A DNA stretch of 62,989 bases, counting the filler, from Stramenopiles sp. TOSAG23-3 (taxonomy: Eukaryota): NCBI GenBank assembly GCA_900128585.1. It is 22 parts of 22 records of this genome, joined end to end, with 100 filler letters (N's around TTAATTAATTAA, not from the genome) between each part and the next. Parts side by side here need not be neighbours in the genome. Positions count along the whole stretch, not along the records: positions 1 to 2,799 come from LT644586.1; positions 2,900 to 5,690 come from LT644587.1; positions 5,791 to 8,577 come from LT644588.1; positions 8,678 to 11,454 come from LT644589.1; positions 11,555 to 14,331 come from LT644590.1; positions 14,432 to 17,206 come from LT644591.1; positions 17,307 to 20,077 come from LT644592.1; positions 20,178 to 22,948 come from LT644593.1; 14 more parts are not named here. One strand, 5' to 3'. This document shows, piece after piece, positions 1,506 to 60,240 of the stretch. Within the stretch, counting starts at the first letter, position 1; each line of letters begins with the position of its first letter. The notes under the pieces were generated by a model. It saw nothing but the letters and a program-made list of their open reading frames with translations. It was not told the DNA's origin and ran no database searches. The translations under genes and the position numbers were made by a program.

Positions 1506-1541
1506 TTAATTAATTTAAATAACAGCCAGTTTTTTGTTTTT
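1506..1541 (-). promoter_or_regulatory. Recurrent 3'-end motif, copy 1 of 7 (consensus AAAAACAARAAAWTGGCTGTTATTTAAGTAATTAA)
   Basis: Near-identical copies at 30234-30269, 37082-37107, 48436-48464, 48501-48536, 48649-48687, 59991-60024; function inferred only. Confidence 0.55.
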
Positions 1542-1562
1542 ACATACTGTATTTTTTTGTTT

Positions 1563-2567
1563 TCATAAATAGGCGTCGACACGGCACCTTGGTGGATTGC
1601 AGGACGGGTCCCGGCCATCGATAGGACCCATCCCGCGGTGGTATCCTGGAAGCTTCCCATAAAGCACGGCAGGGGCCGACCCTTGCAAGGTGTACGTCCC
1701 CGCGCTGTTCCCCCGCGCGACTGGCAGCAACAGTCGGGCAGCCTCTGTCCACGCCGGCAAGTCAACCGTAGAGCGATCGCGAGCCCCGGGAATCCCAATC
1801 AAACCTTTCAAATTATTGTACACCTTGCTAAAGTTACGAAACGCATCCATGTCACCGTTCCACAACTTTTCAGGCTCCAGGAAGGCTTGGTTGAAGAAAT
1901 ACCCCCACCTAAACTCAAAGAAAGGAATGCTATCGCCGTCCGAGTCGCACGTTTTGATGAATGTGCGGTCGCAGTACTTGACCGCGCAAGAGTCGCTGCT
2001 CAGTTTTCTCCCAAACCCTGCTAAGGAACGCCAGTTGTCGTTGATTAGGGAGGAGGCCGTGGTGTTGAAAAAAATTACGTTCGGTAGGGCGGTGAAGTCT
2101 ATTTCTTTGTACAGCGCGTCCGTAGCCGGGTCTGGGCTTGCGTAGTTGAAAACCCCTTTTTCGTCCACCATTTTCTTCCAAAAAGTCTGCATGTCCATAC
2201 TCGGATCGAATACGCATACAACGTTAATGGTCACCGAGACGTCGAAGTAGCCACTGTAGTCCAACGCGGCCAGCAAATGGTGGTGGTCCAAAAGCCAAGC
2301 GTCGTTGGCTGGTCCAAGGCACACGGGAATAGGCTTTTCGTCCAGCTCGTCCTGGGCTTCCGCCTCACTACCCATGTGCTCACTGTGCTTTTGCAAAGCC
2401 CAAGAGTAGCCCAGCTGTGGCTGCGTCGGGTGCATGCGCCACTTTAACTTCCCCCAGTGCTGATGGCACGAATCTCCCTTCTTCAACCCAGACATATCGT
2501 GGCACTTGTCACTGGTGCACAGCCCACAGCTTGCAAGGAGAAAGAGCAGCACTTGGACGACCTTCAT
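1563..2567 (-). CDS. Secreted ParB-like nuclease family protein (ParBc_2-like)
   Basis: Signal peptide MKVVQVLLFLLASCGLC; ordered motifs HPTQ, PIPVCLGP..WLLDHHHLLAAL, FWKKM, NDNWRSLAG, PFFEFRW. Confidence 0.75.
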   Translation of the reverse strand: MKVVQVLLFLLASCGLCTSDKCHDMSGLKKGDSCHQHWGKLKWRMHPTQPQLGYSWALQKHSEHMGSEAEAQDELDEKPIPVCLGPANDAWLLDHHHLLAALDYSGYFDVSVTINVVCVFDPSMDMQTFWKKMVDEKGVFNYASPDPATDALYKEIDFTALPNVIFFNTTASSLINDNWRSLAGFGRKLSSDSCAVKYCDRTFIKTCDSDGDSIPFFEFRWGYFFNQAFLEPEKLWNGDMDAFRNFSKVYNNLKGLIGIPGARDRSTVDLPAWTEAARLLLPVARGNSAGTYTLQGSAPAVLYGKLPGYHRGMGPIDGRDPSCNPPRCRVDAYL

Positions 2568-2899: not shown

Positions 2900-5690
2900 T
2901 ATTGCAACATGTAGGCTTAGGCCCTGAAATGTCACGTTGTTCCTTAAGTCACTTCTGTCAACTCCATTATCGTAACACAACCCCTCAATTCTTGTGCTGA
3001 AGCGTTCGCTTCACAAAGAGAATTGGCTCAAACGAGTTGCTGGAGTGACGCGAGTGGCTATGGAGCAGATGTCCGCCTAGCCGTTGGGCTTTAGGCTCCT
3101 AACGCTACCATCGAATTGACAATTTCCATGTCGATCGTGGTCTGAAAACTGTGGTGTTTACCACATATTGCATTTCCTGCATGCATTGTGTTCGTACTTG
3201 TGTTTTCCATATTCATCACTTTGTTTCTTAACGCATTCTGCGTCACCTTTCCAAGAGGCTTGGTGAACAGATCGCCCTCATTTTCTGACGAGCTCACATG
3301 CTTTAACTCAATCAATTTTGCATCGATAAGTTCACGAATCCAATGATATCGGACTCCCATGTGCTTGCTCAACGCATCGATGTGCTTCATCCGGTTGAGC
3401 GTTGCTTCGCCTTGGGCTAAATTTTGCGCTGTGATGTTGTCGTTCATCAAAATTGCTGGCTTCGGAAACTCCTCGTTGAAGAATTCCGCCAGTCTTTTCG
3501 TCCATATGATATCCTTTGCTGCATCCGTAAACGCACAGTACTCAGCTTCGGTGCTGGAGAGAGTGACATTACGTTGTCTCCGCGACACCGCAATAATGGG
3601 TCCTCCCATGTACTTCACTAGGTAACCAGTGGTGGACCGTCTGGTAGACGGATCGCCACCCCAGTCTGCGTCAACGTAGAATCTGAAGGCTTCTTTTCCT
3701 TCTTTGGAGAATCGTATTCCCTTGTTCTTCGTCGCTGACAAATAATGGACTATTCGACTTAGACCTTTCCAATGTCTGTGGCACGGTTTTTCCGAAAATT
3801 GGGCCAAGTGGAAGGTCGCTTGTAATATATCAGGGCGCGTCATTCTCCCAAGATGAGAGAGACAGCCCAACAGTGATCGATACTTCGTAGTATCCATCAG
3901 TTCTTCCGACGGTTTGCTTTCTTCAAGCCAGTCTACCATCGGAGTGTAAATCGTACGATTGGTCTTTACCAAATCGTTTTCGAACTCTTGTTCAATGAAG
4001 TCAACATAGGTCGGTTGAGATACAACAATTTCCTCATCATCTCTCTTGATCGATAGACCTAAACCTTTGTTGAGTTTTTCCACTATGGAAAATTCGAAGT
4101 TCATTTCAGTCAGACGCTTCACAATTTCTTCAACACTCGATTCGTCCACATAGGACAAAAAGCAGTCGTCGACATGTACACAAAGGTAGACGTCGAGTTC
4201 TCTGTGGTAAAACAGACACTGGTCGAGCTCAATCTTAGCTTGCTCAAAACCAATTTTCTGGAGCGCTTCACTGAGTGCGAGATACCACTCGCGGGATGCT
4301 TGCTTTAGTCCGTACAGACTTTTCTTCAACAGCAGCATCACATTGTTATCGAACTTCTTATCAGCTTCATAAAACTGAGGAATTTTCATATATATTTCTT
4401 CTTTGAGATATGGGAACAAAAAGGCACCTGCGAAATCCATGGTTTTTAATTTCCTTCCATGCTTCAAAGCATGGGCTATCATGAATAAAAATGTCGCATA
4501 CACCGTGACAGGTGAGGTGGTTTTCGTATAGTCGTAACCCTGAATTTGCCTAAAACCTTGCACGGTTAAACGGGCTTTTCGCTTTATGATTGCACTGGTT
4601 CTTGGATCACGTTTGACCTTCAATACCATTTTCGTGCCTAGGGGTCTTTTATTGACTAATCTCCCATCGACTTCAACCCAAGTTCCACGCTTTTTGAGCT
4701 GATCGAATTCAGCTTTAATCGCTGACAGCCACAAAGGCCAGTCATCACGCAGCATGGCTTCAGCCGTCGTTGGGTTGTCGAATTGCTTCATAGTAATTTT
4801 GAAGTCTTTTCCTTGAGTGGCCTGGTAGGCCCACATGTAGTCTACGTGAATAGTGGCGACGTCATGGTCGACTTCAACCACTCTCATCTTCGCAGATTTG
4901 CTTTTGCTAGAGTTGAGGTCCAACGCCATCAGCACTTCAACTACCGGTCCTTGACTTCTGGTATGAGGTCTTTCGAAACGTTCTGCATGTCGCCTTCTGG
5001 CTGCTTCCCGTTCGTCGTTAATTTCTTGATGTTCTTCGTCTTCTACTGGCGCAACAGTGGTACTGGCGGGTTTATAGAGACGGTTATCACCGATTTTTGA
5101 CCAGTTCTGATCATACTCTACATCAACCCCTTCAAAAAACGGGGGTAACGTAGGAATTATGCACTTTCTATTGGGTGCTTCCTCAAAATTGACATAGTGG
5201 GCACCTTCGCGCAGGCGCTTCCATCGAGCTTCGGTGTGACTGAGAGTCTCATCGAGTATGACACTTTTTCGGAGAAATATTTGGTTTCGATGCGGAATGT
5301 AAATTCGCATGGCAGGATTGCGCGGATCGATAGTCCTTTCCTTGCCAAGATAAACACCAAGCCTAAATCGTCTGGAACGTTTCCCATCTGGTCGTTGTTT
5401 CGCAGCTAAATATTCATAGGCTGTTGACCCGAACGTTCTGAGTTCGTTAATGTGGGGTTTTGTCCCTGTCCAAATTTCGTTAGGACATAAATAATCGAGT
5501 CCACTGTGTGGACATAAATTGTACACGTCGACACCATGTCGTAGGCTTTGCCAGTACAATGTCTGGTATTCCTCTGGTGTAAATTTCGCGTGTACCAACT
5601 GAGCGCTAGCAATTTTATTAATGGTTTGAATTACTCTTTCAGCAAAACCATTTTCCCAACTGGAGTGGGCCACGGTGCGAAGGTGGCGTA
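2900..5690 (-). mobile_element. Ty1/copia LTR retrotransposon fragment (3' part of pol, PPT, start of 3' LTR)
   Basis: Integrase-RT-RNase H domain order; purine tract GAGGGG at about 2981-2986 followed by TGTTACG starting at 2977 on the minus strand. Confidence 0.92.
3091..5688 (-). CDS. pol: Copia Pol polyprotein (integrase C-part, RT, RNase H), 5'-truncated by contig edge
   Basis: NGFAER (integrase); KARLTVQGFRQIQGYDY, LKKSLYGLKQASREW, VHVDD (RT); YVDADWGGD..RRSTTGY, LSSTEAEY, RYHWIRE, DLFTKPL (RNase H); no stops or frameshifts. Confidence 0.95.
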   Translation of the reverse strand, partial: RHLRTVAHSSWENGFAERVIQTINKIASAQLVHAKFTPEEYQTLYWQSLRHGVDVYNLCPHSGLDYLCPNEIWTGTKPHINELRTFGSTAYEYLAAKQRPDGKRSRRFRLGVYLGKERTIDPRNPAMRIYIPHRNQIFLRKSVILDETLSHTEARWKRLREGAHYVNFEEAPNRKCIIPTLPPFFEGVDVEYDQNWSKIGDNRLYKPASTTVAPVEDEEHQEINDEREAARRRHAERFERPHTRSQGPVVEVLMALDLNSSKSKSAKMRVVEVDHDVATIHVDYMWAYQATQGKDFKITMKQFDNPTTAEAMLRDDWPLWLSAIKAEFDQLKKRGTWVEVDGRLVNKRPLGTKMVLKVKRDPRTSAIIKRKARLTVQGFRQIQGYDYTKTTSPVTVYATFLFMIAHALKHGRKLKTMDFAGAFLFPYLKEEIYMKIPQFYEADKKFDNNVMLLLKKSLYGLKQASREWYLALSEALQKIGFEQAKIELDQCLFYHRELDVYLCVHVDDCFLSYVDESSVEEIVKRLTEMNFEFSIVEKLNKGLGLSIKRDDEEIVVSQPTYVDFIEQEFENDLVKTNRTIYTPMVDWLEESKPSEELMDTTKYRSLLGCLSHLGRMTRPDILQATFHLAQFSEKPCHRHWKGLSRIVHYLSATKNKGIRFSKEGKEAFRFYVDADWGGDPSTRRSTTGYLVKYMGGPIIAVSRRQRNVTLSSTEAEYCAFTDAAKDIIWTKRLAEFFNEEFPKPAILMNDNITAQNLAQGEATLNRMKHIDALSKHMGVRYHWIRELIDAKLIELKHVSSSENEGDLFTKPLGKVTQNALRNKVMNMENTSTNTMHAGNAICGKHHSFQTTIDMEIVNSMVALGA

Positions 5691-5799
5691 NNNNNNNNNN
5701 NNNNNNNNNNNNNNNNNNNNNNNNNNNNNNNNNNTTAATTAATTAANNNNNNNNNNNNNNNNNNNNNNNNNNNNNNNNNNNNNNNNNNNNCACCCCCCA

Positions 5800-8577
5800 A
5801 TGCTGCTCTTCCGGGGCGGCCCTGTCCTCGCCCTGTTCCTTTTTGGTGTGTGTTGCACGACCATGGTGTCCCCGGAGAATGGGGCGGCGAGGACGGTCAA
5901 GTTCAGCGTGGACTCCCTCGGGGACCCGGCGGACTTCTTCGCCTCGGCCTTGGCCTACGACGACGGCAACGAGGACGACGGCGGCCGCGCCGACGACGGC
6001 AGCGGGGAGGGGGGGGGGCACGGCGAGCCCGGGGCGGACGCGGCCGTATCCACGGAAGCGTTCACGGAGCTCCCCCCCTCCGTCAAGGACAGCCTGCACT
6101 TTGCGTTTTCCCAGTCAAGCGTCCTGGACGAGGTCCAGTTCTTCCTGTCCCTGGACGGAAAGCTCGTCGAGCGACGGTACAACAAAGTAAAGTTCGTTTA
6201 CCGGCTCGAGCGAATGCCCGAGGGCGTCGTCGGCGTCGCACTTACGCCGATCTACTCGGTCGGCCAAGTCCTCGTGACCTCGACCACGGGGAAAGTCTTC
6301 CTCCGGCACTCCGTTTACCCCGCCGGCGACATTGCGTGGACGGACGTCACGATGCCCGGGCACTACATCGTTGGCGGCGGGCAGTTCTACCAGCACTGGG
6401 AGAACGGAAAGGTGCTATGCTACTTCGTTAGCGCTCAGGGGAGCCTGCTCGAGTACAACACGCTCCCGATCGTCACCGTGGGGAAGAACCAACAGTCCCA
6501 CCGGTTCACCTCCGCGGACGACTTTCGGCGAAAGGAGAACTGGAAGAACCTCGGACACCCGCGGGACGGCGGCCTCGTCGGCGTGTCCGCCGTTTTCTAC
6601 ACGTCCGCGGGAAGGAAAGTCATCGCCTGCGTCAACGCGCTCGGCCAAGTGGTCCTCTTCGAAAACCAGCGATGGAAAACGGTCGTTGGCCCCGCCACGG
6701 TCGACCCGGGCAACCTGCTGCCCTCCGGCCAGGGCTCCGGCGGCGACGACGACGACGACGACGACGGCCCCCGCCAGGGCGAACGCCTCCGCATCCTTCC
6801 CCTTCCCGCCGCGACGGTCACCCCGGTGACCCACGAGAACGCGCCGAGCATCATGATGGTCCTTGGGGCGGACGGGAGGGTGTACGGCGTCGTAAAGGTC
6901 GGGAGGGAATGGGTCCTCGAGTACCACGAGTGCTTCTACGGAAAAGCCGTGGTCCACTTCGTCAGCGCCCCCAGCAAGGCCGTGGTCCGGAACTCCGCTG
7001 TGTCCGTCTTCTTCGTGTCTGCGAGCGGGCGCCTCTTCGAGCGGACCCTTGACCTGAAGGTCCAGTCGCGCTGGAAATGGATCGACCACGGCCACCCGGG
7101 CGGCCACCTCCTCGCGGCCGCGCCGCCGCTGGTCTCGCACGGGGCAGAGCTTATCTGCCGGACCCGGGCCGGGGACGTCGCCAAGCTCGTCCTGTGGGGC
7201 TTCGTCTGGCGCTGGAACGTGGATCGCCCCCCGGCGATCCTCCGGTACACCACCAACGCGGGCGGCGAGGGCGATGGCGCGGGAAAGTTCTGCGACCGGG
7301 ACCTTGTGAGCGTCGACGACTGCTACCACGGGTTCGACCCCATGGGCGTCATGCCCGTGCCAAAGGTTGAGGACGCGTACGAGGCCGTTACGCAGGCGAA
7401 GACGAACGACCCGTCCCTCTTCAACATGAAGGAGCTTCGGGTCAACGGCGTCAAGGTCACGACGGACTGCCCCCTCATCTCGTACACGGTCGACCCCGAC
7501 GATGCGGACTCGCCAAATTTCGACAACTCGAACCTTGGCAACCGAGTTCTTCCGGCCACGATGATCGTCGCACGGACAGCCCAACTTTTCGCCCCCGAGA
7601 CGGTCGCGGTCCGCTGGTCCGCCCCGGCGAACGCGTCCTACGCCCCCCCTGCGTCTGGGGCCCCGGACGTGGAGGCCCTGCTTGCCCTGGGGGGGCTGGC
7701 GATGTCCTCCTCCGCGGCCGCGACGCCAGGCTCCCGCGCGGCGTTCGCCATGGCCCGCATGACGGAGAACTCCATATTCATCGTCAGCCCCGGGGGGCTC
7801 GTGTTCGAACGGTTCTGGAACCAGGCCCATTGGGTGTACGTCCGGCACCGGGGCCTGCCCCCGGAGCCCGCCGTCCAGCTGACCACGATCAGCCACGGCG
7901 GGACCCTGTTCGCGTCGACGTTGAAGGGGGGGCTCTACCAGCGCATCGCCAGCGGGTACTCCAAACCGCTCACGTGGAAGCGCCTCATCCACCGAGGAAG
8001 CAAATTCTTTCAAGGGGGTGTAGTCTCCGCCATCGACAACGGGAAGGTATACTTTTTGGACCACACGGGAAAGCTTTTGATCCGTCACATTCAGCAGCAG
8101 CGGTGGCAGAAGGCGTTCAAGGACGCCGAGGAGATGTGGGTGAAGGACCCGCAGCACCGGTCGTACTCGCTGCCGAGGAAAAAGCAGAACATCTTGTACG
8201 CCGGGACCACGGTGCGGAAGGGGGGGCAGATGGTAAAGTTGGCCGTGCTGATCAGCGCGGACGACCTGACCCCGGGCCTCTTCTTCGCGCTGGACGTCAA
8301 CGCCGAGCTCTGGGAGTACTCGACGTGGCTCTCCCGGTGGGTTTGGCACGGCAGGCCCGATGACGCCTTCCTTGCCATTCAGCCCGCCGCGGTCCTCCCG
8401 GACTCGAACGCCGTCGGGTCGCTCTTTTTTCGAACGACTGACGGGCGCGTCTTCGAGCGCTACTTCAACCAGTTTCGAAAGAGCTGGATGTGGGTCGACC
8501 ATGGAAGCCCGATCGTGGCCAAGCTCGCCGGTCCCCCGGGCGCGGTCCTGTTCAACAACCGGATCCATTTTGTTGGG
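5800..8577 (+). CDS. Secreted Trp-rich repeat protein, probable beta-propeller (lectin-like), 3'-truncated
   Basis: Signal peptide; repeated FFxxxxGxLFER..WxWxDHGxP units; long GC-rich open frame. Confidence 0.7.
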
Positions 8578-14431: not shown

Positions 14432-14680
14432 GAAAGAAAGGAAGGAAGGAAGGAAGGAAGAAAGAAAGAACTCAAAAGAAAGAAAGAAAGAACTCAAAAG
14501 AAAGAAAGAAGAGAAAAAAAAAAAAAGAAGAAAAAAAAAAGAAGAAAAAAGAAAAAAAAGAAGAAGAAGAAGAAGAAGAAGAAAAAAAAGAAAAAGAAGA
14601 AAATATATGAAATATAATATTATAATAAAATAATAATAATAATAAAAAATTACCGAAGAAAGAAGAAGAAGAAGAAGAAG
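14432..14680. repeat. Purine-rich microsatellite (GAAA/GAA) with 22-bp CTCAAAAGAAAGAAAGAAAGAA units
   Basis: Direct inspection; the same unit occurs inverted at 17101-17206. Confidence 0.85.
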
Positions 14681-17729: not shown

Positions 17730-18230
17730 AGTCTGATTGTGCAAGCACAGCCTCGCGTTCGTCGAACTTCCTTGCATGCGCAGGGAGACAGCTGCTGAAA
17801 ATCAGAAACGAAGAAATGTACAGTGCCGGTGCTTAAAAGACTGCTTGGTGCATGTGAAATGGTCAACGTGTAATAATTATATTCGACATTTCAAAAAATA
17901 ATAATAATAATGCCTTCTTCTCTTCCACATTTTTTTTTATTTTCAATTTTTTTATTATTATTAATATTAGTAGTGTCTGTCCTATTAATATCATCTATTC
18001 TGTTATTTTAATTAGAACAGACTATTCGTCCATCCCCAACAACAACAATGGCTATTACATTAGATTATTATATTTATAGAAGACACTAAAAACAGCAGCG
18101 GAGTAGCGGTATAATATTAATATCAAATATAAAAAAACAAACACCGCGTTTTTTTTCTCTCTAAAATAAAAATGGTTTTATTATTTTTTTCTGCTGCTGC
18201 TGCCTGTGGATGTACGTAACTATTGAAATT

Positions 18231-18525
18231 AAGAAGAAGAGAAGAAAGAAGAAGAAGAAGAAGGAAAGAAGAAGAGAAGAAAGAAGAAGAATAAGAAGGA
18301 AAGAAGAAGAAGAATAAGAAAGAAGAATAAGAAGAAGAAAGAAGAAGAAGAAAGAAGAAGAAGAAAGAAGAAGAAGAAAGAAGAAGAAAGAAGAAGAAGA
18401 AAGAAGAAGAAGAAGAAGAAGGAAGAAGAATAAAGAAGAAGAAGAGGAAGAAGGGCGGGCGCCAGGCGCGGCGGAGAAGAGAGAGGAGAGAAGAAGAGGA
18501 AGGAAGGATAAAAGAAGAAGAAGTA
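18231..18525. repeat. (GAA)n microsatellite; similar tracts at 20178-20283, 23049-23143, 31655-31792, 43200-43370
   Basis: Direct inspection. Confidence 0.95.
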
Positions 18526-19895: not shown

Positions 19896-20513
19896 ACAGA
19901 CATAGACAAAAACATTTTTAAAGAATTTTTATTGAAATATTTACAACACAGCAAACAAGAACTTGAACCACTGTTTTTTATTGCGGACGGAGAATGGGGC
20001 AAGTGGCATGTGATGGGGAGGAAGAAGGAGACTTCAGCAGGGAGCAGTACGACCGGTAGTATAATATGATGATCAAGNNNNNNNNNNNNNNNNNNNNNNN
20101 NNNNNNNNNNNNNNNNNNNNNTTAATTAATTAANNNNNNNNNNNNNNNNNNNNNNNNNNNNNNNNNNNNNNNNNNNNGAAGAAGAAGAAGAAGAAGAAGA
20201 AGAAGAAGAAGAAGAAGAAGAAGAAGAAGAAGAAGAAGAAGAAGAAAGAAGAAGAGGAAGAAAGAAGAAGAAAGAAGAAGAAGAGCAACAACACATCATA
20301 ATAACGAACATCATCCTTTTTTTTTTTAGAATTTTTTGTTTTTGTTGTAAGTGAACTTCTTTGTAAATATATTTAAAAATATGATGGATGCATTCTGTAT
20401 AAGAAGAAATGAAATTGGAAGAAAGAATGAAAGAATGTATGTACATGGATTATATTTATTTTTTTATAAATGGGATAAATTTAAATGAGAACAATTGAAA
20501 GGGTCATGAGTAA

Positions 20514-37017: not shown

Positions 37018-37380
37018 CGGATTTTTTTAAAAGCAAAATTATGGCTATTTTAGAGTGTATGATAAATTTAAAATATATATAAAATAACAGCCAATTTTCT
37101 TGTTTTTAAAAAGATAAAAGATAATTCTTCTCGTTGGAATAAAAATAATTCCTCTGTGATGATGATGATTGACAACCATCAACGACGAAACGAAATTAAG
37201 AAATTAAAACATCAAGATAGGATTAGGGTTGGAACTGAAATAGTAGTAATTGATTTAAAATGAGAGTCTTAAAACATACTNNNNNNNNNNNNNNNNNNNN
37301 NNNNNNNNNNNNNNNNNNNNNNNNTTAATTAATTAANNNNNNNNNNNNNNNNNNNNNNNNNNNNNNNNNNNNNNNNNNNN

Positions 37381-40243: not shown

Positions 40244-40322
40244 AATATATTAAATACAACTAATATATATTTATAATATTTATTATATTCCTATATAAAT
40301 ATAAATATTATACTTATAACAT
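40244..40322. repeat. 79-bp AT-rich inverted repeat, left copy
   Basis: Exact reverse complement of 42928-43006. Confidence 0.95.
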
Positions 40323-42614: not shown

Positions 42615-42850
42615 GTCTTCTTCTTCCTTGTTGAACATTTCGACCTCCTCGGTTTCTTCTTCGTCCTCTTTTTCATCGCCCGACTTCGGAGCGTCTTTGT
42701 TCTCGTCTTCTTCCTTGTTGCGCATTTCGACCTCTTCGTTTTCTTCTTCGTCCTCTTTTTTATCGCCCGACTTTGGAGAGTCTTTGTTCTCTTCTTCTTC
42801 CTTGTTGAGCATTTCAACCTCCTCGTTTTCTTCTTCGTCCTCTTTTCCGT
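42615..42850 (-). repeat. 87-bp tandem repeat encoding a 29-aa acidic unit (probable gene fragment)
   Basis: EEVEMxNKEExENKDxPKSGDxKEDEEE about 2.7 times; period is a multiple of 3. Confidence 0.8.
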
Positions 42851-42927: not shown

Positions 42928-43006
42928 ATGTTATAAGTATAATATTTATATTTATATAGGAATATAATAAATATTATAAATATATATTAGTTGTATTTAA
43001 TATATT
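42928..43006. repeat. 79-bp AT-rich inverted repeat, right copy
   Basis: Exact reverse complement of 40244-40322. Confidence 0.95.
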
Positions 43007-43190: not shown

Positions 43191-43673
43191 CAAACCACAC
43201 CTTCTTCTTTCTTCTTCTTTCTTCTTCTTCTTCTTCTTTCTTCTTCTTCTTCTTTCTTCTTCTTCTTCTTCTTCTTCTTCTTCTTCCTTCCTCTTCTTCT
43301 TCTTCTTCTTCTTCTTCTTCTTCTTCTTTTCTTTCTTCTTCTTCTTCTTTCTTCTTCTTTCTTCTTCTCTACCGAGTACCGTAGTGGGTAGTGAGTGGGA
43401 TGAGCAAAAGTTTGAATGGATCAACTTATTATTAGTAGGTACGTAACGTATCGCACGGAACGAGGAGGAACCCACCACCGGCCTCCGGCTCAACTCCTTC
43501 CTATACTAATAACTCTTGTTTAAGTGACTCAACACCTACGTCTGAACACAAACACTAACGATTGGATTTGAATTAAGAAAGTACTAAAGAGTTATTTAAG
43601 CATTGAGTACGATTTCATGCCGATTTCGCACTTAATAAAATAAAGTACAAGACTACCATTATAAATCTAAACA

Positions 43674-48273: not shown

Positions 48274-48825
48274 GAATATTTGTGCATTATGCACTTAATG
48301 CTTTCAATTTACTTCGTAAAGGGTAAAATTTATTTCCTTTTAAGTTTAATCATTTATAAAACGGGGTTTAAAACATTTCTTCGTCCAAAGACACCACCAC
48401 GCACCCGAACCAAATAGTAAGTCTAAATATTCAATAAAAACAAAATAAATGGCTGTTATTTAAGGTATGATATGCATATTATTTAACATATTTCTTTCTT
48501 AAAAACAAACAATTGGCTGTTATTTAAAGTAATTAAGAAAGTTTTTCTTCTTCATTAATATTATTATTAGCTTAATAATATTAGCTAATTATAATGGACA
48601 AAAGGAGCAGATTCATTTTCGCGGTACATATGAGGAAGATAAATTTTATTTAATTTACTTTATAAATAACAGCCAATTTTTTGTTTTAAAGTTGTAAACT
48701 TTCACAAGTTTACCCCTATATTGCANNNNNNNNNNNNNNNNNNNNNNNNNNNNNNNNNNNNNNNNNNNNTTAATTAATTAANNNNNNNNNNNNNNNNNNN
48801 NNNNNNNNNNNNNNNNNNNNNNNNN

Positions 48826-51504
48826 AAGTTTTTCATGTAGATTATGATCGATACCCTATCCGTCAAAAATATCATCATTAAAGATGTTTAATGAACATTT
48901 TCAACAGCGCCCAGAGCGGTAAATTAAGGCAGGGAAACGTCGGCTTATACGCCTTGGTATATTGGTTCACCTTTGATGCGCTTGGCAGTTGAATTACCGT
49001 TACAGTGAGAGTTGAAGCAAGGTATGCATAGTTTTGCTTTGCAATCTTCACAACACAATTGTGTGTGTTTGCGTTGGTGCTTCCTTGTAGGGCCAAAGCC
49101 ATTTTTGCAGGATTGGCAGTCCCCTCTGGAACAAGAGCCCAGTCTCTTCCGGCAAGACGTCGTTTGACGTTTGTATGGGGAACGCCTTTTTTGCTGACGT
49201 GCCGGGGTTGAACGTTCAATAGTTTCGCCCCGTTCTCTTAAAGCATAACCGGCAAGGCCGTCGGCGATTTCCAATTGGAAATCAAGCCGCGCCTTTGCCG
49301 GTATACCTGCCCTTGCACAAAGTGCTTTGTGCATGGAATAAGCGTTCGCTGCTGGGGCGTCCAGCATCGCCCAAAGGGCGACGGGGACATTCCATCTTCT
49401 ACAACGTAAACGATCGGTACGAAAATGGTTAACACGTTGGTCAAACCTGTCCACACTATTCATATGTGCATTGTAATCTGTTTGCAGTATCAGTTTTGGC
49501 AAAGGCTTTAAGTAATTACCCCTATTTTTATACAAACCTTGTACATCTGTATAGTAACTACTTCCAAAAACTGTGGGAACAGTATCATAAATTGACGCTG
49601 CCAGAAGACCATTGCTGGAGGTAGCATATTTTACTAGGCCCTTGTTTTTTTTCTTTTTTGATGTAGGTATTTTTATGCACTCCGGTACTAAGCCACTATG
49701 ATTAACATGACATGTCCCACTGCAATAGAAACCCATTCTGTGCTTACCAAAGAGCATAAGCCCAGCACTATTGTAATATCGATCCATATACAAATGATAC
49801 CATTTTCGATTATTTTGTTTCATAATCCTATCAACTAGAGTAGAAACCCTTTTACCAGTTCTGGTAAGCAGGCTGTACTCATCGTAGTCCCAATAGTCTG
49901 GATGTAGCTCGTACGTATGCTTTCGAGGGTCATGGCGCCATTCGAATGTTACACAGTATGATCCATCGGCAATAACCTCGAATTGGATACCATCCCCTTC
50001 CCGCTTAAAGGACCTACATGTAGCTTTTATCAACTTGCTACAGTGAGGCCCTATCGCTCTTGTACTCTCATCAAGCGCAAGTCTGGGGGATGGCTCCCAG
50101 AGCCGAATGCAATTCGAATTAAAATGGCGTAGTGCTGGGCGCACCTTATACAAAGGATCCCAGCTTCTTTCCCCTTCTGCAGGTTGTAGTTCATTATCCG
50201 CTAAATGAAACGAAAACCAGAATGCGGAGAATTTCCGATAGGTTGGAAGCGCATTAATGATACACGGATTCCTTAGTGATTGGTGACCTAACCAGTTCGT
50301 CCTCATTCTAGGAGCTGGTTTTACTCCATTGTACACAAGGCAAGCCAAAGCACGGTCAAGATCCTCTGAAGTTAATTGTCCGATTCCGCTTGATTTAAGG
50401 TCCTTATGCTTAGTAATACCAGCTCCTATCTGGGATGCGTAGAGATTACATTGAGGTAGACAAGTAAATTTTCTAAATATTGGCGTATTAAATAAATTAA
50501 ATACGTCAAATCCAGTACTTGTTTCTGAAACCCCACGGGGAAGATTTTTGGGGCCGAATGGTGATTCCACTATAGCCCCTACTAACGACCGTTGCTCTCT
50601 TATCTTCTGATACTCCGCCCGTATCGTTTCGTCTTCACTAAAGGGGGTATTGTATCTCCATGTTAATACCTTTTGATATTTTTTTAACCTCGACGGGTAT
50701 TCACGCTGAAAACTTTGATCCTCATATTTGAGAGTCACGTCTGCTCGGCTCTTAAGCTCCTCTGACCAGTCCTCTGGCAGAGGCAGAGGGGTTGTCTCCA
50801 ACTCTTGTGGTTCAGGATCAACATTTAGACCAACAATCCCCGCAATATCGTCAGTGTCGGACGGGTATGATTCTTCTTCTACAGATACATCAGCACCATC
50901 ACCTGCCTCTTCACCACCTGCCTCTTCACCACCTGCCCTTCTGATGGCACTACCAAGAGTGGCAACGACACTTGCAGCTCCTGCAGCTGTTTGCTGAATC
51001 AGCCCAGAAAATAAACTTGCAATTGGATTGGGAGACAGAGTGGATGAATGCGGCTCTTCCCTACGGATGTCCCGGCCCATAGCTTTAACAACATCACCTG
51101 ATTCTACCAAGGCTACAGGCCACTGCCTTTCTTTTGGCACTTTCTTGCCAATTCTACCTTCCACCCAGGATTCACCACAACGAACAAACACACGTTCGTT
51201 TTCTGCAAAACGGCTCTTTCTTCCCATTTTGTAAATCTTTTGCTATGGTGTGTCCGTGTATTGTTTTGCAAATGTAACGGTTTTAACGGCTATTTGTGGC
51301 CATGAGTGGTGGCAAGAAGTTCAACAGTTTCCTAAGAAAATCGTCAAATATTTGTAGTTTTTCTAGGGAACTGCAAAGCCAACAGTTCAAACGACGTGAA
51401 CCAACTCCAACTTTTAGATAAATATCGTTATTTTTAGTATACAGTCACAATGTACCTATAATTTGCTATGAATACGCATATATGCGTATTTGCGTTATAA
51501 AGAG
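48826..51504 (-). mobile_element. piggyBac-like DNA transposon (3' end probably off contig)
   Basis: Intact transposase; candidate 5' terminus CTCTTT at 51504 followed by a 20-bp palindrome. Confidence 0.75.
48945..51227 (-). CDS. piggyBac-family transposase
   Basis: DPLYKVRP; DDD triad LALDES, LYMDRYYNS, YNAHMNSVDRFDQ; C-terminal Cys/His-rich domain. Confidence 0.92.
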   Translation of the reverse strand: MGRKSRFAENERVFVRCGESWVEGRIGKKVPKERQWPVALVESGDVVKAMGRDIRREEPHSSTLSPNPIASLFSGLIQQTAAGAASVVATLGSAIRRAGGEEAGGEEAGDGADVSVEEESYPSDTDDIAGIVGLNVDPEPQELETTPLPLPEDWSEELKSRADVTLKYEDQSFQREYPSRLKKYQKVLTWRYNTPFSEDETIRAEYQKIREQRSLVGAIVESPFGPKNLPRGVSETSTGFDVFNLFNTPIFRKFTCLPQCNLYASQIGAGITKHKDLKSSGIGQLTSEDLDRALACLVYNGVKPAPRMRTNWLGHQSLRNPCIINALPTYRKFSAFWFSFHLADNELQPAEGERSWDPLYKVRPALRHFNSNCIRLWEPSPRLALDESTRAIGPHCSKLIKATCRSFKREGDGIQFEVIADGSYCVTFEWRHDPRKHTYELHPDYWDYDEYSLLTRTGKRVSTLVDRIMKQNNRKWYHLYMDRYYNSAGLMLFGKHRMGFYCSGTCHVNHSGLVPECIKIPTSKKKKNKGLVKYATSSNGLLAASIYDTVPTVFGSSYYTDVQGLYKNRGNYLKPLPKLILQTDYNAHMNSVDRFDQRVNHFRTDRLRCRRWNVPVALWAMLDAPAANAYSMHKALCARAGIPAKARLDFQLEIADGLAGYALRERGETIERSTPARQQKRRSPYKRQTTSCRKRLGSCSRGDCQSCKNGFGPTRKHQRKHTQLCCEDCKAKLCIPCFNSHCNGNSTAKRIKGEPIYQGV

Positions 51505-54957: not shown

Positions 54958-55282
54958 TTATATTACTGTTTTACATACCTTTTTCAAGCGCTGAAAGGGT
55001 TTTGCCCATTCTGGATATATATCTTTTCAATATGAAAAGTCGAAAAAGTGGAAAAAGTGGAAAAAGTGGAAATCAGAAGAAAAGTTGAGAAGAAATAAAA
55101 AAAAAATTATAAAAATATTTCGGGGTACTCCGGATTTCCCCCAATTTTCCACTTTTTCCACTTTTCAACCTATTTCTATATTATTTTACAAACCTTTGTT
55201 TTTAGTCATTGAAAGGGGTTATCCCCGTACTGAAAAGTGGAAATCAGAGGAAAAGTTGAGAAGAAATTAAAAAAAAATTATA
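54958..55282. repeat. Iteron-like cluster: (GAAAAAGTG)x3, inverted copies and ~50-bp direct repeat
   Basis: 9-mers at 55042, 55051, 55060; inverted at about 55145-55166; direct repeat 55062-55111 vs 55232-55282. Confidence 0.85.
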
Positions 55283-56594: not shown

Positions 56595-57391
56595 TTTATC
56601 ACCGTTTTTTATTTGTATCTATTATGCAACCTACCGTTTTCGTTCTCCGATAGTTTTGGGAGGCACGGTTCCAAACCGGCCCCCGGGACTCGTACGCGTG
56701 TGTGTCGGGCCAGCTCAACCGGCCCAATACGAATGCGTCGGGCCAGTTTTCTCACGCACATGGCAACCCACGCACAACTTTCCTAGGATGTCAGAGTAAA
56801 TGAACGGGCATTTTTGTTTCAATAGAAGAAAAGTTTTTTTTCTGTAAAGTTCAGGTAAGACTGACTTGTCGAAGGTGTCGGGACTATTGGTAGGCACCAG
56901 AAAAGGGCTATCTTTGTATGTTGGAAGAGAACAAAAATGCCACCTGCTTGTGCTGGGGCAGTGAATGCATGACGCAAATAATTGTTCAGATAGAAGGAGT
57001 CAAAGAGTTCCTTCCATGAAGGTTGATCCGGGCGTGTCTTGCCTCCTTCGATAGACCTTTAGCTTCGTATGGCCAAAATTCGGGTACAAAAAAGGTCCAC
57101 TTCAATGGTGCGCGCCTAGACTCCTACTGTTGTTCTATAAATACTTAATTATAATGTATCATTTTGAATAATATCCATATAATAGAGATAACTTATCGTT
57201 AGCTGGTACGTTGTTCCAGAAAAACGCTATATCATATACTCCTGCTGTGTTTCATTTTAATATTATTTTTGTTAAGGGTTAGCTTTTTATGNNNNNNNNN
57301 NNNNNNNNNNNNNNNNNNNNNNNNNNNNNNNNNNNTTAATTAATTAANNNNNNNNNNNNNNNNNNNNNNNNNNNNNNNNNNNNNNNNNNNN

Positions 57392-59941
57392 CATATATTC
57401 CAAATCGAAGAATTTGGTGGCACTGATGGACGCCACTCCGTAACGATGGTACTATGGGATGATGTAGACTGGGGGGCATTTGTTGTAGTTGAAGGGGAAA
57501 CCTTAGCGACGTACGTATATTCACCGGTATCCATAAATGGTCCTGTTTGCACGAAAATAGGTTCAATTGGCATAGGAGCAAATGGAGACATGAAAATCAC
57601 CCCAAACAACACTAAATTGCCCCACGGTTGCAGTCCTATAAGTATATTCAATGGCAGAATTACGTGCCAGCGGCAGAATGGCCAGTTGGATTCAGTTGTA
57701 CTGCAAACTCACACCAATGTGAAAATAAGGCATGGAATGGAGAAGTCTCGAGCATATTTTGAGTTATGTTTCAATCAGCGGTTAGCTCTAATGCGACTTA
57801 AGGATGCGTGGGATGTGGCTGTGAAACTTAAGGAGAGGCGATTCTGGCTTGCGTTAAGTGGGAAGGCCCTTGAACAGCTAGATATAGCAATGGCTCTGCG
57901 TGTTTACCGTGCTCTTGGAGATGCTGGTATGACGCAATCGTTAGAACGAGTAGTGGATGTGGAGGACAAGCGATTTTTGGCTGGGTACGTCCATATTTTG
58001 TTCTCCGATTATTCCAAAGCACAGGAAAACTTTCTCGGTTCTACTGTTCCACAAGCAGCGTTGGAAATGCGTCGAGACTTATTACACTGGGATCATGCTC
58101 TGAAACTGGCTGAGACGATCGATCCCTCTCAGGTTCCATTTATATCTGCAGAATATGCCCAGCAGTTGGAATTTAAAGGAAAATATGGGGCAGCGTTACA
58201 AAACTACGAGTCCGCGATTCTAGGTATACAGGCATTGAATACTTCCCCCGGCTACAGAGGGAAGGAGAGTACAATCTCCGGTTCTTCGTTTGATGCTGAT
58301 CGCAATAAGCTGGCCAAGTATGAATCGTTGTGTGAATGTGGTATTGCTCGGATGATGATACGGCAAGGTGATATTCGCCGTGGAGTGTCGCGAGTGAAGA
58401 ATAATGGCAATGCTTCTTTATGTCGCGAATGTGCTTCAATATTAGAAACAATGCGACAGTATCCTGAAGCTGCGCGCTTGTTTGAATTGGGTGGGTGCCA
58501 CGAAAAAGCTGCTGCTGTGTACATTCAATGCAAAGACTTCACGTCTGCTGCTCCGTTAATGACTCATATCAAGTCCGCCAAGTTGCATGGGCAGTATGCC
58601 AAGGCGAAGGAGGCGGCAAAAGATTATGAAGCTGCTATTAAAGCTTATGAAGCTGCAAATGATATGGACTCTGTAGTAAGGCTGTATCTGGACTACGTGG
58701 ACAACCCAGAACTTGCGTTTGCAATTGTCCGAAGTACATCCTCTGCAAATGCTGCACAAATGGTGGCTACGTTCTGTCGCGTGAAAGCTAATTGGGCAGG
58801 TGCTATAGAATTTTTGTTAATGGCAAAACGGGGAGAGGAGGCATTTGAACTCGCAGAAAAGCACAACCAAATGGATATTTATGCAAATGCTATGAAAGAT
58901 AACGGCTCAAGTGAAGATTACATGAAAATCGCAAAGCATTATGAACGAAAGGCCAATTGGGGGAAAGCTGGTAAATATTGGGCAATCTCTGGCAAATACC
59001 ACCAAGCTCTTAAGTTGTTTTTGAAGTGCGGAGAAGATGAAATCGAAAAAGCCATTGAAGTTGTTGGGAAAGCGAAGTCCCAAATTTTGACTCACACTTT
59101 GATCGATTATTTGATGGGAGAAGAGGATGGTGTTCCAAAAGATCCCAACTATATATTTCGCCTATATATGGCTCTTGGGAACTTTAAACAAGCGGCAAAA
59201 ACTGCCAATATAATAGCGCGCCAAGAACAGGAACTTGGGAATTATAAAGTTGCCCATCTTATACTGTTTGAAACTATAAAAGATCTGGAAGCCCAGAATG
59301 TGAAAGTTCCAGCAAATTTGCGTTCATCTTTTTTGCTATTGCATAGTTACATACTAGTAAAGAAACTGGTCAAGCAAGGTGACCATGTCAACGCTGCCCA
59401 TATGCTTATGCGAGTCGCGGACAATATTTCAAAATTTCCGATGCATACTGTGCAAATACTGACATCAGCAGTCATCGAATGCCAGCGCTCTGGCATGAAG
59501 GCAAAAGCTTTTGAATACGCTTCTCTATTAATGACGCCCAACAATCGTAAATCTGTCCCGGAGAAATTCCGCAAGAAGATTGAGAACATTGTAAGGAAAA
59601 AACGGGGTGTGCTGGAAGATGTTAAGACTGATGCATCACCGAGTCCATTCGATTCAAAAGTGAAAGTTCCTGTAGATCAATTGATTTGCCCGACAACTCG
59701 AAATGATATACCTTGGTGTATTGTTTCAGGTTATCACATGGAAATTGGCGATTGGAGTATTTGCCCGAACACAAATATGCCTGCCCTGCACAGCAAATAT
59801 ATAGCATGGCTAAAGAAAGACCCCTACGATCCAATAACGGGTAAACCTGTGGATTTGTCTGCAATCCAGTTGCTGAGAAAACCTAAGGTTGTTCACATCA
59901 CGTCATCTCCACCTGCGAACCATGCACAGATTTCGAAGTAA
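57392..59941 (+). CDS. WDR19: Intraflagellar transport protein IFT144/WDR19, C-terminal part; 5'-truncated
   Basis: AALEMRRDLLHWDHALKLA, EYAQQLEF, LIDYLMGEEDGVPKD..FRLYMAL, ISKFP.H.V.ILTS.VIECQRSG. Confidence 0.95.
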   Translation, partial: HIFQIEEFGGTDGRHSVTMVLWDDVDWGAFVVVEGETLATYVYSPVSINGPVCTKIGSIGIGANGDMKITPNNTKLPHGCSPISIFNGRITCQRQNGQLDSVVLQTHTNVKIRHGMEKSRAYFELCFNQRLALMRLKDAWDVAVKLKERRFWLALSGKALEQLDIAMALRVYRALGDAGMTQSLERVVDVEDKRFLAGYVHILFSDYSKAQENFLGSTVPQAALEMRRDLLHWDHALKLAETIDPSQVPFISAEYAQQLEFKGKYGAALQNYESAILGIQALNTSPGYRGKESTISGSSFDADRNKLAKYESLCECGIARMMIRQGDIRRGVSRVKNNGNASLCRECASILETMRQYPEAARLFELGGCHEKAAAVYIQCKDFTSAAPLMTHIKSAKLHGQYAKAKEAAKDYEAAIKAYEAANDMDSVVRLYLDYVDNPELAFAIVRSTSSANAAQMVATFCRVKANWAGAIEFLLMAKRGEEAFELAEKHNQMDIYANAMKDNGSSEDYMKIAKHYERKANWGKAGKYWAISGKYHQALKLFLKCGEDEIEKAIEVVGKAKSQILTHTLIDYLMGEEDGVPKDPNYIFRLYMALGNFKQAAKTANIIARQEQELGNYKVAHLILFETIKDLEAQNVKVPANLRSSFLLLHSYILVKKLVKQGDHVNAAHMLMRVADNISKFPMHTVQILTSAVIECQRSGMKAKAFEYASLLMTPNNRKSVPEKFRKKIENIVRKKRGVLEDVKTDASPSPFDSKVKVPVDQLICPTTRNDIPWCIVSGYHMEIGDWSICPNTNMPALHSKYIAWLKKDPYDPITGKPVDLSAIQLLRKPKVVHITSSPPANHAQISK

Positions 59942-60240
59942 ATCTCTTGCTGGAAACTAAAAAAAAACCTACGAAGTAAAATATCTTAATAAACAAAAAA
60001 CTGTCTGTTATTTCAAGTAATTAAAAAATCCAGCAGTGAGCAATCCAGCAGTCAGCACCCCAGCATCGCCCCGACCCTAGTAGTGATATCCTCGGATGAT
60101 GACACAGAGAATCAGAGCGTTGCCAGCAGGACGAGGTTCCNNNNNNNNNNNNNNNNNNNNNNNNNNNNNNNNNNNNNNNNNNNNTTAATTAATTAANNNN
60201 NNNNNNNNNNNNNNNNNNNNNNNNNNNNNNNNNNNNNNNN

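What the first reader, a model, noticed from the sequence alone, without database searches (positions are those of the whole stretch)
1506..60024. Conserved ~35-nt element near gene 3' ends on five unrelated contigs
Seen: consensus AAAAACAARAAAWTGGCTGTTATTTAAGTAATTAA occurs 7 times. It is in sense orientation about 20 nt after the ParB-like stop, directly at the NnrU stop, about 50 nt after the IFT144 stop and twice after VPS33. The copies at 30244 and 37082 share 26 identical nt. Two copies are reversed and form inverted pairs (48501/48687; degenerate 37029/37107). None was seen in a CDS. Inference: either a lineage-specific 3'-processing/termination or 3'-UTR signal much longer than a normal poly(A) hexamer, or the TIR of an abundant MITE targeting gene ends.
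Basis: partly seen in the sequence, partly recalled or inferred. Interest (0 to 1): 0.75.

Follow-up and report, generated by a model that had tools for sequence, protein, structure and literature searches.

The report
Short dispersed repeat at gene tails
A 40-65-base AT-rich repeat with an invariant 12-base core sits only in the short spacers behind genes of an unidentified protist; it is most likely a small mobile-element-derived repeat that may have been put to use at gene ends, but that use is not shown.

Summary
The window is 22 short contigs of an intron-poor eukaryote joined by N spacers. The core TGGCTGTTATTT (at most 1 mismatch) occurs 7 times against 0.38 expected. A profile finds the same 7 copies on 5 contigs and nothing intermediate.

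All 5 loci lie in spacers behind stop codons; none lies in 9.1 kb of 5' spacer or 40.5 kb of ORF (P about 0.009). The claimed sense orientation is confounded: at 2 loci the spacer is shown to be tail-to-tail, and at the other 3 the far side runs off the contig.

The shared unit has a sharp edge at a TA 17 nt before the core, a 98%-identical core and a fraying inner side. It occurs solo (3 loci), as an abutting 64-nt tandem, and as two inverted pairs: a 195-nt foldback with a stem of about 65 bp (z -9.2) and an 82-nt palindrome (z -4.7).

Only 5 of 17 gene-tail spacers carry it. Homology this long implies spread by copying, so I read it as a MITE/foldback-like repeat family that is tolerated, perhaps co-opted, at gene tails. 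A pure 3'-end signal remains a live rival. No RNA data or further DNA of this organism could be reached.

The parts
1505..1543 (-). Copy c1 (core 1517-1528). It is a solo unit that fills most of the 97-nt spacer between the convergent MFS (+, stop ends at 1465) and ParB-like (-, stop at 1563) genes. Similarity to copy c17c runs on to about 1492.
   Evidence: (1492-1517 vs 48632-48657, 92% of 26)
30233..30269 (-). Copy c11 (core 30244-30255). It is a solo unit. The NnrU stop codon TAA overlaps the unit's first bases. The convergent Trp/Tyr-type tRNA synthetase gene stops at 30046, 186 nt away.
37072..37108 (-). Copy c13 (core 37082-37093). It forms the right arm of an 82-nt palindrome, 37027-37108.
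   Evidence: (-22.2 kcal/mol, z -4.67)
37027..37060 (+). Degenerate left arm of the contig-13 palindrome. It starts about 10 nt after the DEAD-helicase stop (37017). The profile barely detects it (about 0 bits).
   Evidence: c13 vs c13p: 58 identities over 76 nt
48435..48498 (+). Copy c17a (core 48450-48461). It is a 64-nt unit 161 nt after the VPS33 stop, and copy c17b abuts it head to tail.
48499..48563 (+). Copy c17b (core 48514-48525). It is the left arm of a foldback of about 195 nt.
   Evidence: stem of about 65 bp, -59 kcal/mol, z -9.19
48630..48692 (-). Copy c17c (core 48664-48675). It is the right arm of the foldback, 33 nt from the contig end.
   Evidence: c17b vs c17c: 52 identities over 58 nt
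59987..60026 (+). Copy c21 (core 60002-60013, 1 mismatch: TGTCTG). It is a solo unit 45 nt after the IFT144/WDR19 stop. GC-rich sequence that is open in two frames starts 2 nt after it, and the contig ends 114 nt later.

Best explanation
The element is a family of short dispersed repeats that spread by copying, that is, of mobile-element origin, most like a MITE or foldback element.

The shared unit is 40-65 nt. It has a sharp outer end at TA-AAAAC, an A-rich stretch, the invariant core TGGCTGTTATTT, often TAATTAAAA, and in the longer copies a pyrimidine block ATCTTCCTC.

Units occur alone, as an abutting tandem, and as two inverted pairs whose outer ends face outwards and whose arms match in length.

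The units persist only in the AT-rich spacers behind genes of a compact genome. There they must be part of, or lie immediately next to, the 3' UTRs of the flanking genes.

Shown: the repeat family, its anatomy, its restriction to gene tails, and the hairpin potential of the pairs.

Inferred: mobility, from homology of 26-58 nt between unlinked loci, the common sharp edge and the foldback pairs.

Also inferred: that the invariant core is a protein-binding site (transposase or host factor), and that some copies now supply 3'-end signals. ATTAAA lies 17-21 nt after the core start in 4 of 7 copies.
For: - Homology between loci is too long for independent origin: 26 of 26, 46 of 49 and 52 of 58 identical bases between copies on different contigs or arms. 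In an all-against-all blastn, the only inter-contig pairs at E of 1e-6 or better (3 pairs) belong to this family or to element B, among 49 pairs listed at E of 0.01 or better, the rest being intra-contig tandem repeats and simple repeats.
- All 7 copies share a sharp edge. Pairwise identity is 0.30-0.33 beyond -17, 0.64-0.72 from -16 to -1, 0.98 in the core, and decays to background by about +25.
- There are two inverted pairs with outward-facing sharp ends and length-matched arms: a stem of about 65 bp (z -9.19, 0 of 200 shuffles as stable) and an 82-nt palindrome (z -4.67).
- An exactly abutting 64-nt tandem lies at 48435-48562.
- Presence or absence is all-or-none: 5 of 17 gene-tail spacers carry the unit, and the next profile hit scores 3.6 bits.
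- Every copy is preceded by TA.
- The same 63 kb holds other mobile DNA and a second dispersed repeat: a copia-type RT, a piggyBac-type transposase ORF and element B.
- All 5 loci are in gene-tail spacers (P 0.0087).
Against: - Four of the 7 copies have no inverted partner. Contigs 1 and 11 were searched whole, more than 1.2 kb on each side. Copy c17a is also unpaired. For copy c21 only 114 nt of contig remains on its inner side.
- The two paired elements differ in size (82 and about 195 nt) and share no interior sequence. Classical MITE families are uniform.
- No TSD can be read. The junctions are T-run/A-run and fit TA, TWA or TTAA equally.
- No autonomous element with these termini is in the window. 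The piggyBac-like ORF's flanks hold no copy.
- The core is invariant in 6 of 7 copies while the bases next to it vary and carry indels. That looks like a constraint acting at each locus, which favours a present function rather than passive junk.
- The fit to stop codons is very tight: 0, 19 and 45 nt, and one unit fills most of a 97-nt convergent spacer.
Confidence: 0.55

Rival explanations
1. The unit is a dedicated cis-acting 3'-end module. It would be a composite cleavage/polyadenylation or termination signal, possibly working in both directions for two convergent genes, and kept at each locus by selection. Read forward it is U/G-rich core - AUUAAA - pyrimidine block. Read in reverse it is AAAUAAC - CA - U/GU-rich run.
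For: - The unit is found only behind stop codons (5 of 5 loci), at 0-45 nt in three cases.
- One unit occupies most of the 97-nt spacer between two convergent genes.
- The core is 98% identical while its neighbours vary.
- ATTAAA sits at a fixed offset, 17-21 nt from the core start, in 4 of 7 copies.
- The reverse strand carries a TTGTTTTT-type run. It recalls the Blastocystis downstream element TGTTTGTT, which lies 4 nt after the poly(A) site in about 96% of 2,419 genes (PMC4159000, passages read).
- Of the 7 adjacent gene pairs in the window, 5 are convergent and none is tandem, so a two-way terminator would be useful here.
Against: - Twelve of 17 gene-tail spacers have no copy and nothing degenerate, so it cannot be the general signal.
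- Known protist poly(A) signals are hexamers with loose auxiliary elements (PMC11529991, abstract and passages), not 40-65 nt of homologous sequence.
- Such homology still needs a copying mechanism.
- The tandem and the 65-bp-arm foldback are not needed for a signal.
- The genes involved share no function: ParB-like, NnrU, VPS33, IFT144 and a DEAD helicase.
- No poly(A) site data exist.
Confidence: 0.3
2. The copies are 5'-truncated tails of a non-LTR retroposon or SINE. Read on the reverse strand, every copy shares a fixed 3' terminus (...CTTGTTTTTA) and is cut off at a different point upstream.
For: - One edge is sharp and the other frays.
- Copy lengths are nested. Similarity ends at or just after the core in c13 and c17a, about 15 nt after it in c11 and c21, and about 40 nt after it in c1, c17b and c17c.
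- Solo copies occur in either orientation.
- An ORF with an endonuclease/exonuclease/phosphatase domain is present on contig 12, although it has no reverse transcriptase domain.
Against: - The fixed end is T-rich rather than a poly(A) or simple-repeat tail.
- The two arms of each inverted pair match in length, which independent truncated insertions would not do.
- No variable-length TSDs were seen; only 4-nt matches at chance level, read by eye.
- No LINE with this tail is in the window.
Confidence: 0.1
3. The unit is a small non-coding RNA gene, or a structured 3'-UTR RNA element such as a protein-binding or localisation signal.
For: It has a conserved core in a transcribed region, and a T-run at the reverse-strand end could act as a Pol III terminator.
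Against: - No Rfam family matches: 0 matches at gathering score over the whole window, and 0 at E up to 1 over 48274-48725. No tRNA-like genes were found.
- Solo copies have no structure beyond chance: z -0.24, -0.28, -0.34 and -0.23.
- There are too few copies for any covariation test.
Confidence: 0.03
4. The copies are an artefact: adapter or primer remnants, chimeric joins, or an assembly repeat.
For: Three of the 5 loci lie within 300 nt of a contig end. Contig 15 carries a perfect 79-nt terminal inverted repeat that looks like an assembly or amplification artefact.
Against: The copies differ from one another by substitutions and indels. Two loci (contigs 1 and 11) are more than 1.2 kb from any contig end, between well-supported genes. 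The unit overlaps a genuine stop codon.
Confidence: 0.02

Closest known systems
TIR-type MITEs and foldback elements (Stowaway/Tourist-like; general knowledge, recalled, not from a call)
   Same: Short, AT-rich, non-coding and dispersed. Inverted arms form long hairpins. The outer end is sharp and preceded by TA. Copies sit close to genes, often in 3' regions.
   Different: Four of 7 copies are solo arms. The paired copies differ in size and interior. No TSD could be read, and no matching autonomous element was found here.
LmSIDER1/2 of Leishmania major (PMC2323293; abstract read)
   Same: A large family of short, degenerate mobile-element relics found almost exclusively in 3' UTRs and recycled to control mRNA fate. 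This is the best precedent for mobile DNA domesticated at gene tails in a protist.
   Different: SIDERs are retroposon relics recognised by a 79-bp trypanosomatid signature, and there is experimental evidence for their function. Here the units are 40-65 nt, pair as inverted repeats, and have no functional data.
Blastocystis GU-rich downstream element TGTTTGTT (PMC4159000; passages read)
   Same: A lineage-specific, strongly conserved 3'-end motif that allows extremely short 3' UTRs. The reverse strand of the present unit ends in a similar T/G-rich run, and copy c17b holds TGTTTGTT exactly.
   Different: The Blastocystis motif is 8 nt, present at about 96% of genes, and sits at a fixed 4-nt offset from the poly(A) site. 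The present unit is 40-65 nt, sits at 5 of 17 gene tails, and its offsets to poly(A) sites are unknown.
Yeast bidirectional termination zones (bioRxiv 10.1101/2022.11.02.514956; abstract) and inverted repeats at yeast poly(A) sites (PMC6420913; abstract)
   Same: AT-rich regions of about 120 bp that end transcription from both strands between genes. A/T-tract inverted repeats are enriched at poly(A) sites.
   Different: The yeast zones are built from degenerate UAUAUA-type motifs, not from a homologous repeat family.
Mimiviridae 'hairpin rule' (PMC4402537; only the start of the abstract seen in the listing)
   Same: Palindromic AT-rich hairpins mark transcript ends.
   Different: That system is viral, and each hairpin has its own sequence. 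Here 3 of 5 loci do not form a hairpin, and gene-tail spacers show no general excess of hairpins.
Canonical poly(A) hexamers of protists (PMC11529991; abstract and passages)
   Same: ATTAAA, the common variant hexamer, lies inside the unit in 4 of 7 copies.
   Different: Those signals are hexamers with loose UGUA and U-rich helpers. In this window AATAAA is rare behind genes: 5 of 22 flanks within 300 nt.

Membership tests
TIR-type MITE / foldback element | Terminal inverted repeats at both ends of each copy | tested here: inconclusive
   Met at 2 of 5 loci (37027-37108; 48499-48692). Not met at contigs 1 and 11, whose whole contigs were searched. Contig 21 ends 114 nt after its copy.
TIR-type MITE / foldback element | Target-site duplication of fixed length flanking the element | tested here: inconclusive
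   The outer junctions are T-run/A-run. TA, TWA and TTAA can each be read in some register (sequences). No empty site is available for comparison.
TIR-type MITE / foldback element | Copies of uniform size with homologous interiors | tested here: not met
   The paired copies are 82 nt and about 195 nt, and their interiors share no similarity.
TIR-type MITE / foldback element | Termini shared with an autonomous transposase-bearing element | tested here: not met
   This covers the 63-kb window only. The piggyBac-type ORF at 48945-51242 has no copy in its flanks. The rest of the genome could not be searched.
TIR-type MITE / foldback element | Dispersed, multi-copy, non-coding, AT-rich | tested here: met
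   7 copies on 5 of 22 contigs, none inside a long ORF.
General cleavage/polyadenylation signal | Present behind most genes in one orientation | tested here: not met
   5 of 17 gene-tail spacers carry it. Orientation relative to the nearest visible gene is mixed: forward at NnrU, IFT144 and VPS33, reverse at the DEAD helicase, ambiguous at MFS/ParB.
General cleavage/polyadenylation signal | Fixed distance to mapped poly(A) sites | not testable with these tools
   No transcript data for this organism could be reached.
Blastocystis-type GU-rich downstream element | TGTTTGTT (up to 2 changes) 4 nt after the poly(A) site at nearly all genes | not testable with these tools
   Poly(A) sites are unknown. 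TGTTTGTT with at most 1 mismatch occurs within 300 nt behind 12 of 22 genes, at scattered positions.
Hairpin-type terminator (Mimiviridae-like rule) | A stable hairpin at every transcript end | tested here: not met
   Solo copies have z between -0.23 and -0.34. The median best z is -1.87 for 17 gene-tail spacers and -2.93 for 18 gene-head spacers (90-nt windows, mononucleotide shuffles).
Any Rfam RNA family / tRNA-derived SINE | Match to a curated covariance model or a tRNA-like head | tested here: not met
   0 Rfam matches and 0 tRNA genes.

The most novel reading that the evidence does not exclude
The unit is a portable two-way gene-end cassette. It would be a mobile repeat whose invariant core binds a host factor. 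It would carry poly(A)-type signals on both strands, so one insertion ends transcription of both genes of a convergent pair. That would have let this compact genome shrink tail-to-tail spacers to about 100 nt. It would be a eukaryotic case of terminators spreading by transposition.
Probability: 0.2. Interest if true: 0.7.

Novelty: new member of a known kind. Interest (0 to 1): 0.4.

Why it matters
If the repeat is only selfish DNA, it is a new small repeat family in an unsampled protist lineage. It is useful for annotation and explains some assembly breaks.

If the invariant core is a working gene-end signal, it would show how a compact eukaryotic genome standardises 3' ends with a copied module. 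Mobile DNA is known to have been recycled in Leishmania 3' UTRs. A working module here would also give a handle for calling gene ends in uncultured protists.

Tried and rejected
- Prokaryote genome scan (GTDB) for AAACAANNNANTGGCTGTTATTT: 13 single matches in 13 unrelated bacterial or archaeal records. None carries the AAGTAATTAA block that follows the core in most window copies. The best (L001) still scores 26.5 bits, inside the window copies' range of 24.5-32, so the profile score alone does not mark these as chance. One match per unrelated genome is what makes them chance hits, and the source genome is not in that collection.
- Literal strings in papers: TGGCTGTTATTT (8 papers) and its reverse complement (3 papers). 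Judged from the titles and abstract starts in the listings, all are on unrelated topics such as animal, cancer and plant-virus studies, so the strings are presumably primers or gene sequence; the passages themselves were not read.
- Rfam and tRNA scans: nothing.
- Intron / introner reading: GTAAAT- or GTATGT-like sites precede 2-3 copies, but not the others. The IFT144 ORF already has the expected length after its propeller domain. Rejected.
- Spliced-leader or CCAAT-box readings: the position before the core varies (T in 4 copies, C in 2, A in 1), so CCAAT is not conserved. Rejected.
- Link to the piggyBac-type ORF on contig 18: its flanks hold no copy. Rejected within this window.
- 'Empty site' on contig 10: two 13-mers are shared with contig 21. 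The implied insert would include non-element sequence, so I judged it chance in A-rich DNA.
- General hairpin rule at gene tails: not supported.
- k-mer contrast of 3' against 5' flanks: TTTAAA occurs in 15 of 22 against 5 of 20, and AAACAT in 7 of 22 against 0 of 20. Neither survives correction for 4096 words.
- Organism name: the VPS33 cluster members carry no organism names, and I took this no further.
Copy number, strain polymorphism and poly(A) sites therefore stayed unchecked.

Full report
WHAT THE WINDOW IS. The 62,989 bases are 22 contigs of 2,749-2,799 bp, sorted by length and joined by N44-TTAATTAATTAA-N44 spacers. Long uninterrupted ORFs encode typical eukaryotic proteins: Sec1/VPS33, IFT144/WDR19, Rpb4, an SCC3-type cohesin subunit, a condensin subunit, RCC1-repeat proteins, myotubularin, citrate synthase, a class-I Trp/Tyr-type tRNA synthetase and Ccdc124. 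There is also a copia-type reverse transcriptase and a piggyBac-type transposase. The best named relatives are oomycete proteins at 39% identity. The source is therefore an unidentified, intron-poor, compact protist genome, and I did not pursue its origin further.

- The core TGGCTGTTATTT with at most one mismatch occurs 7 times against 0.38 expected, and 0 of 100 shuffles reach 7.
- A profile built from the 7 copies finds them at 24.5-32.0 bits, and the next hit scores 3.6 bits. Because the profile was trained on them, the informative result is the empty gap: there are no degenerate or intermediate copies except one weak arm at 37027-37060.
- The 35-nt consensus as written fits only 1 of 7 copies within three mismatches, because of indels on both sides of the core.

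ANATOMY.
- With the copies anchored on the core, mean pairwise identity is 0.30-0.33 upstream of position -17, 0.64-0.72 from -16 to -1, 0.98 in the core and 0.44-0.47 over the next 12 nt. The last value is lowered by indels. Identity is at background (0.23-0.28) beyond +25.
- All seven copies are preceded by TA, and the similarity starts abruptly there.
- The inner side frays in a nested way. Similarity ends at or just after the core in c13 and c17a, about 15 nt later in c11 and c21, and about 40 nt later in c1, c17b and c17c. Those last three share a pyrimidine block, ATCTTCCTC or TTCTTCTTC.
- ATTAAA lies 17-21 nt from the core start in 4 of 7 copies.

ARRANGEMENTS.
- Three loci hold a single unit (contigs 1, 11 and 21).
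- On contig 17 two 64-nt units abut head to tail (48435-48498 and 48499-48562). The second pairs with an inverted unit 48630-48692 to give a foldback of about 195 nt with a stem of about 65 bp: -59 kcal/mol, z -9.19, 0 of 200 shuffles as stable.
- On contig 13 a degenerate forward arm and a strong reverse arm form an 82-nt palindrome: -22.2 kcal/mol, z -4.67.
- The solo copies, and the tandem taken on its own, fold no better than shuffles, with z between -0.23 and -0.34.

WHERE IT SITS.
- Using the long ORFs as genes, the window has 5,739 nt of gene-tail spacer, 9,072 nt of gene-head spacer and 40,539 nt of ORF. Contigs 3 and 20 were left out for lack of a confident gene.
- All 5 loci are in gene-tail spacers, P = 0.0087 for random placement in non-coding DNA.
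- Only 5 of the 17 gene-tail spacers carry a copy.
- Of the 7 adjacent gene pairs, 5 are convergent (spacers of 97-679 nt), 2 are divergent (1,101 and 1,268 nt) and none is tandem.
- This undermines the claim of 'sense orientation'. On contigs 1 and 11 the unit lies between two convergent genes and is sense to one and antisense to the other. On contig 1 it is 19 nt from one stop and 39 nt from the other.
- On contig 13 the strong copy is antisense to the only visible gene.
- On contigs 13, 17 and 21 the far side runs off the contig.

WHAT IT IS NOT.
- It matches no Rfam family and no tRNA-like gene.
- It has no counterpart in prokaryote genomes beyond 13 chance matches.
- It is not the terminus of the piggyBac-type element in the window.
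- It is not an intron or a spliced-leader feature, and not a CCAAT box, because the base before the core varies.
- Gene-tail spacers as a class are not richer in hairpins than gene-head spacers, so a general hairpin rule does not apply.
- AATAAA is rare behind genes here, in 5 of 22 flanks. A contrast of 6-mers and 7-mers between flanks gave only uncorrected hints, such as TTTAAA in 15 of 22 against 5 of 20.

MOST LIKELY EXPLANATION. Identity of 26-58 nt between unlinked spacers cannot arise independently, so the units were copied from one another. Several features are what a small TIR-type or foldback mobile element leaves behind:
- the common sharp outer edge;
- outward-facing, length-matched inverted arms;
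- the abutting tandem;
- the all-or-none distribution;
- the company of other mobile DNA and a second dispersed repeat, element B.

In a compact genome such insertions would survive mainly in gene-tail spacers. I give this reading 0.55.

Its weak points are real. Four of 7 copies are solo. The paired copies differ in size and interior. No TSD can be read, because the junctions are T-run/A-run. No autonomous partner was found.

THE MAIN RIVAL (0.30). In this reading the unit is kept at each locus as a gene-end module. Four things favour it:
- a core that is invariant in 6 of 7 copies, next to variable neighbours;
- the very tight fit to stop codons;
- a unit that fills most of a 97-nt convergent spacer;
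- recognisable signal-like parts on both strands.

Against it, 12 of 17 gene tails lack the unit. Known protist signals are hexamers with loose helpers (PMC11529991). Even the strongly conserved Blastocystis element is only 8 nt and is present at about 96% of genes (PMC4159000).

The two readings are not exclusive. Leishmania SIDERs show that mobile relics can be recycled in 3' UTRs (PMC2323293, abstract), and yeast ends transcription from both strands in shared AT-rich zones (bioRxiv 10.1101/2022.11.02.514956, abstract). A retroposon-tail reading (0.10), a small-RNA reading (0.03) and an artefact (0.02) are less likely, for the reasons given under the rivals.

LIMITS. Everything rests on 7 copies in 61 kb of short contigs. 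Such contigs are probably enriched for repeats near their ends: 3 of the 5 loci are within 300 nt of a contig end. No further DNA of this organism, no sister genomes and no transcript data could be reached. Copy number, orientation statistics, TSDs, strain polymorphism and poly(A) sites all remain to be measured.

VERDICT. This is a real, non-random, gene-tail-restricted dispersed repeat, most likely a new small mobile-element-derived family with possible secondary use at gene ends. It is of moderate interest, and would be of higher interest if the two-way gene-end cassette reading proves true.

Noticed in passing
whole window; spacers at e.g. 2800-2899: The window is not one locus. It is 22 contigs (2,749-2,799 bp, in descending length) joined by N44-TTAATTAATTAA-N44. 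Any feature that spans a spacer is artificial.
   Followed up: yes
24320-24384 (contig 9), 37230-37280 (contig 13, cut by the contig end), 44777-44834 (contig 16): A second dispersed repeat, 'element B' (TGGAACTGAAATAGTAATTGATTTAAAATGAGAGTCTTAAA...). Contigs 9 and 13 share 37 nt at 97%. On contig 16 part of it is inverted relative to a shared TATATAATTTGTTTTTTT block. All three copies lie in gene-tail spacers, two of them between convergent genes.
   Followed up: partly
all two-gene contigs (1, 7, 9, 10, 11, 14, 16): Of 7 adjacent gene pairs, 5 are convergent (spacers of 97-679 nt), 2 are divergent (1,101 and 1,268 nt) and none is head-to-tail. Several ORFs have no Pfam support, so the count is provisional.
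   Followed up: partly
40244-40322 and 42928-43006 (both ends of contig 15): A perfect 79-nt terminal inverted repeat sits exactly at the two contig ends. (I1) reports 179 nt, of which 100 nt are the artificial spacer. It is probably an assembly or amplification artefact, possibly a real hairpin-ended unit.
   Followed up: no
48945-51242 (-) and 51329-51370: An ORF of 765 aa has a piggyBac-type transposase domain (DDE_Tnp_1_7, E 3.9e-26). Upstream of it lies a 42-nt palindrome containing TTTCTAGGG, which resembles the canonical piggyBac end as I recall it; that was not checked against a reference.
   Followed up: partly
3091-5688 (-): A copia-type polyprotein fragment (RVT_2, E 2.2e-39, plus a retroviral SH3-like domain) fills contig 2.
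   Followed up: no
5791-8577 (contig 3): This contig has 66% GC against 40-53% for the other 21. It has long open frames on both strands (929 and 720 aa) and no Pfam match. It may come from another organism or be a repetitive gene.
   Followed up: no
27444-27472 (contig 10) and 59951-60027 (contig 21): Two 13-mers (TGGAAACTAAAAA and AAGTAATTAAAAA) are shared in the same order. They are adjacent on contig 10 and separated by the c21 copy on contig 21. This looks like an empty site, but the implied insert includes non-element sequence, so I judged it chance.
   Followed up: partly
62709-62913, 42616-42846, 26713-26861, 55062-55282: Local direct repeats: a unit of about 76 nt (three copies, 95-96%) on contig 22; an 87-nt period on contig 15; a 75-nt period on contig 10; and two 50-nt copies 171 nt apart on contig 20.
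   Followed up: no
contig ends, e.g. 14436-14600, 18230-18450, 20179-20290, 23049-23145, 31655-31800, 43195-43370, 62909-62984: Long GAA/CTT-type and related microsatellites lie at or near many contig ends and probably caused the assembly breaks.
   Followed up: no
first 200-300 nt behind the stop codons of 22 genes: TTTAAA occurs behind 15 of 22 genes against 5 of 20 gene heads. AAACAT occurs behind 7 of 22 against 0 of 20. AATAAA occurs behind only 5 of 22. These are hints at the organism's general 3' signals, not significant after correction.
   Followed up: partly
60029-60140: GC-rich sequence starts 2 nt after copy c21. It is open to the contig end in one frame on each strand. The minus-strand frame would stop at a TAA inside the unit. 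The coding status is unresolved (read by eye).
   Followed up: no
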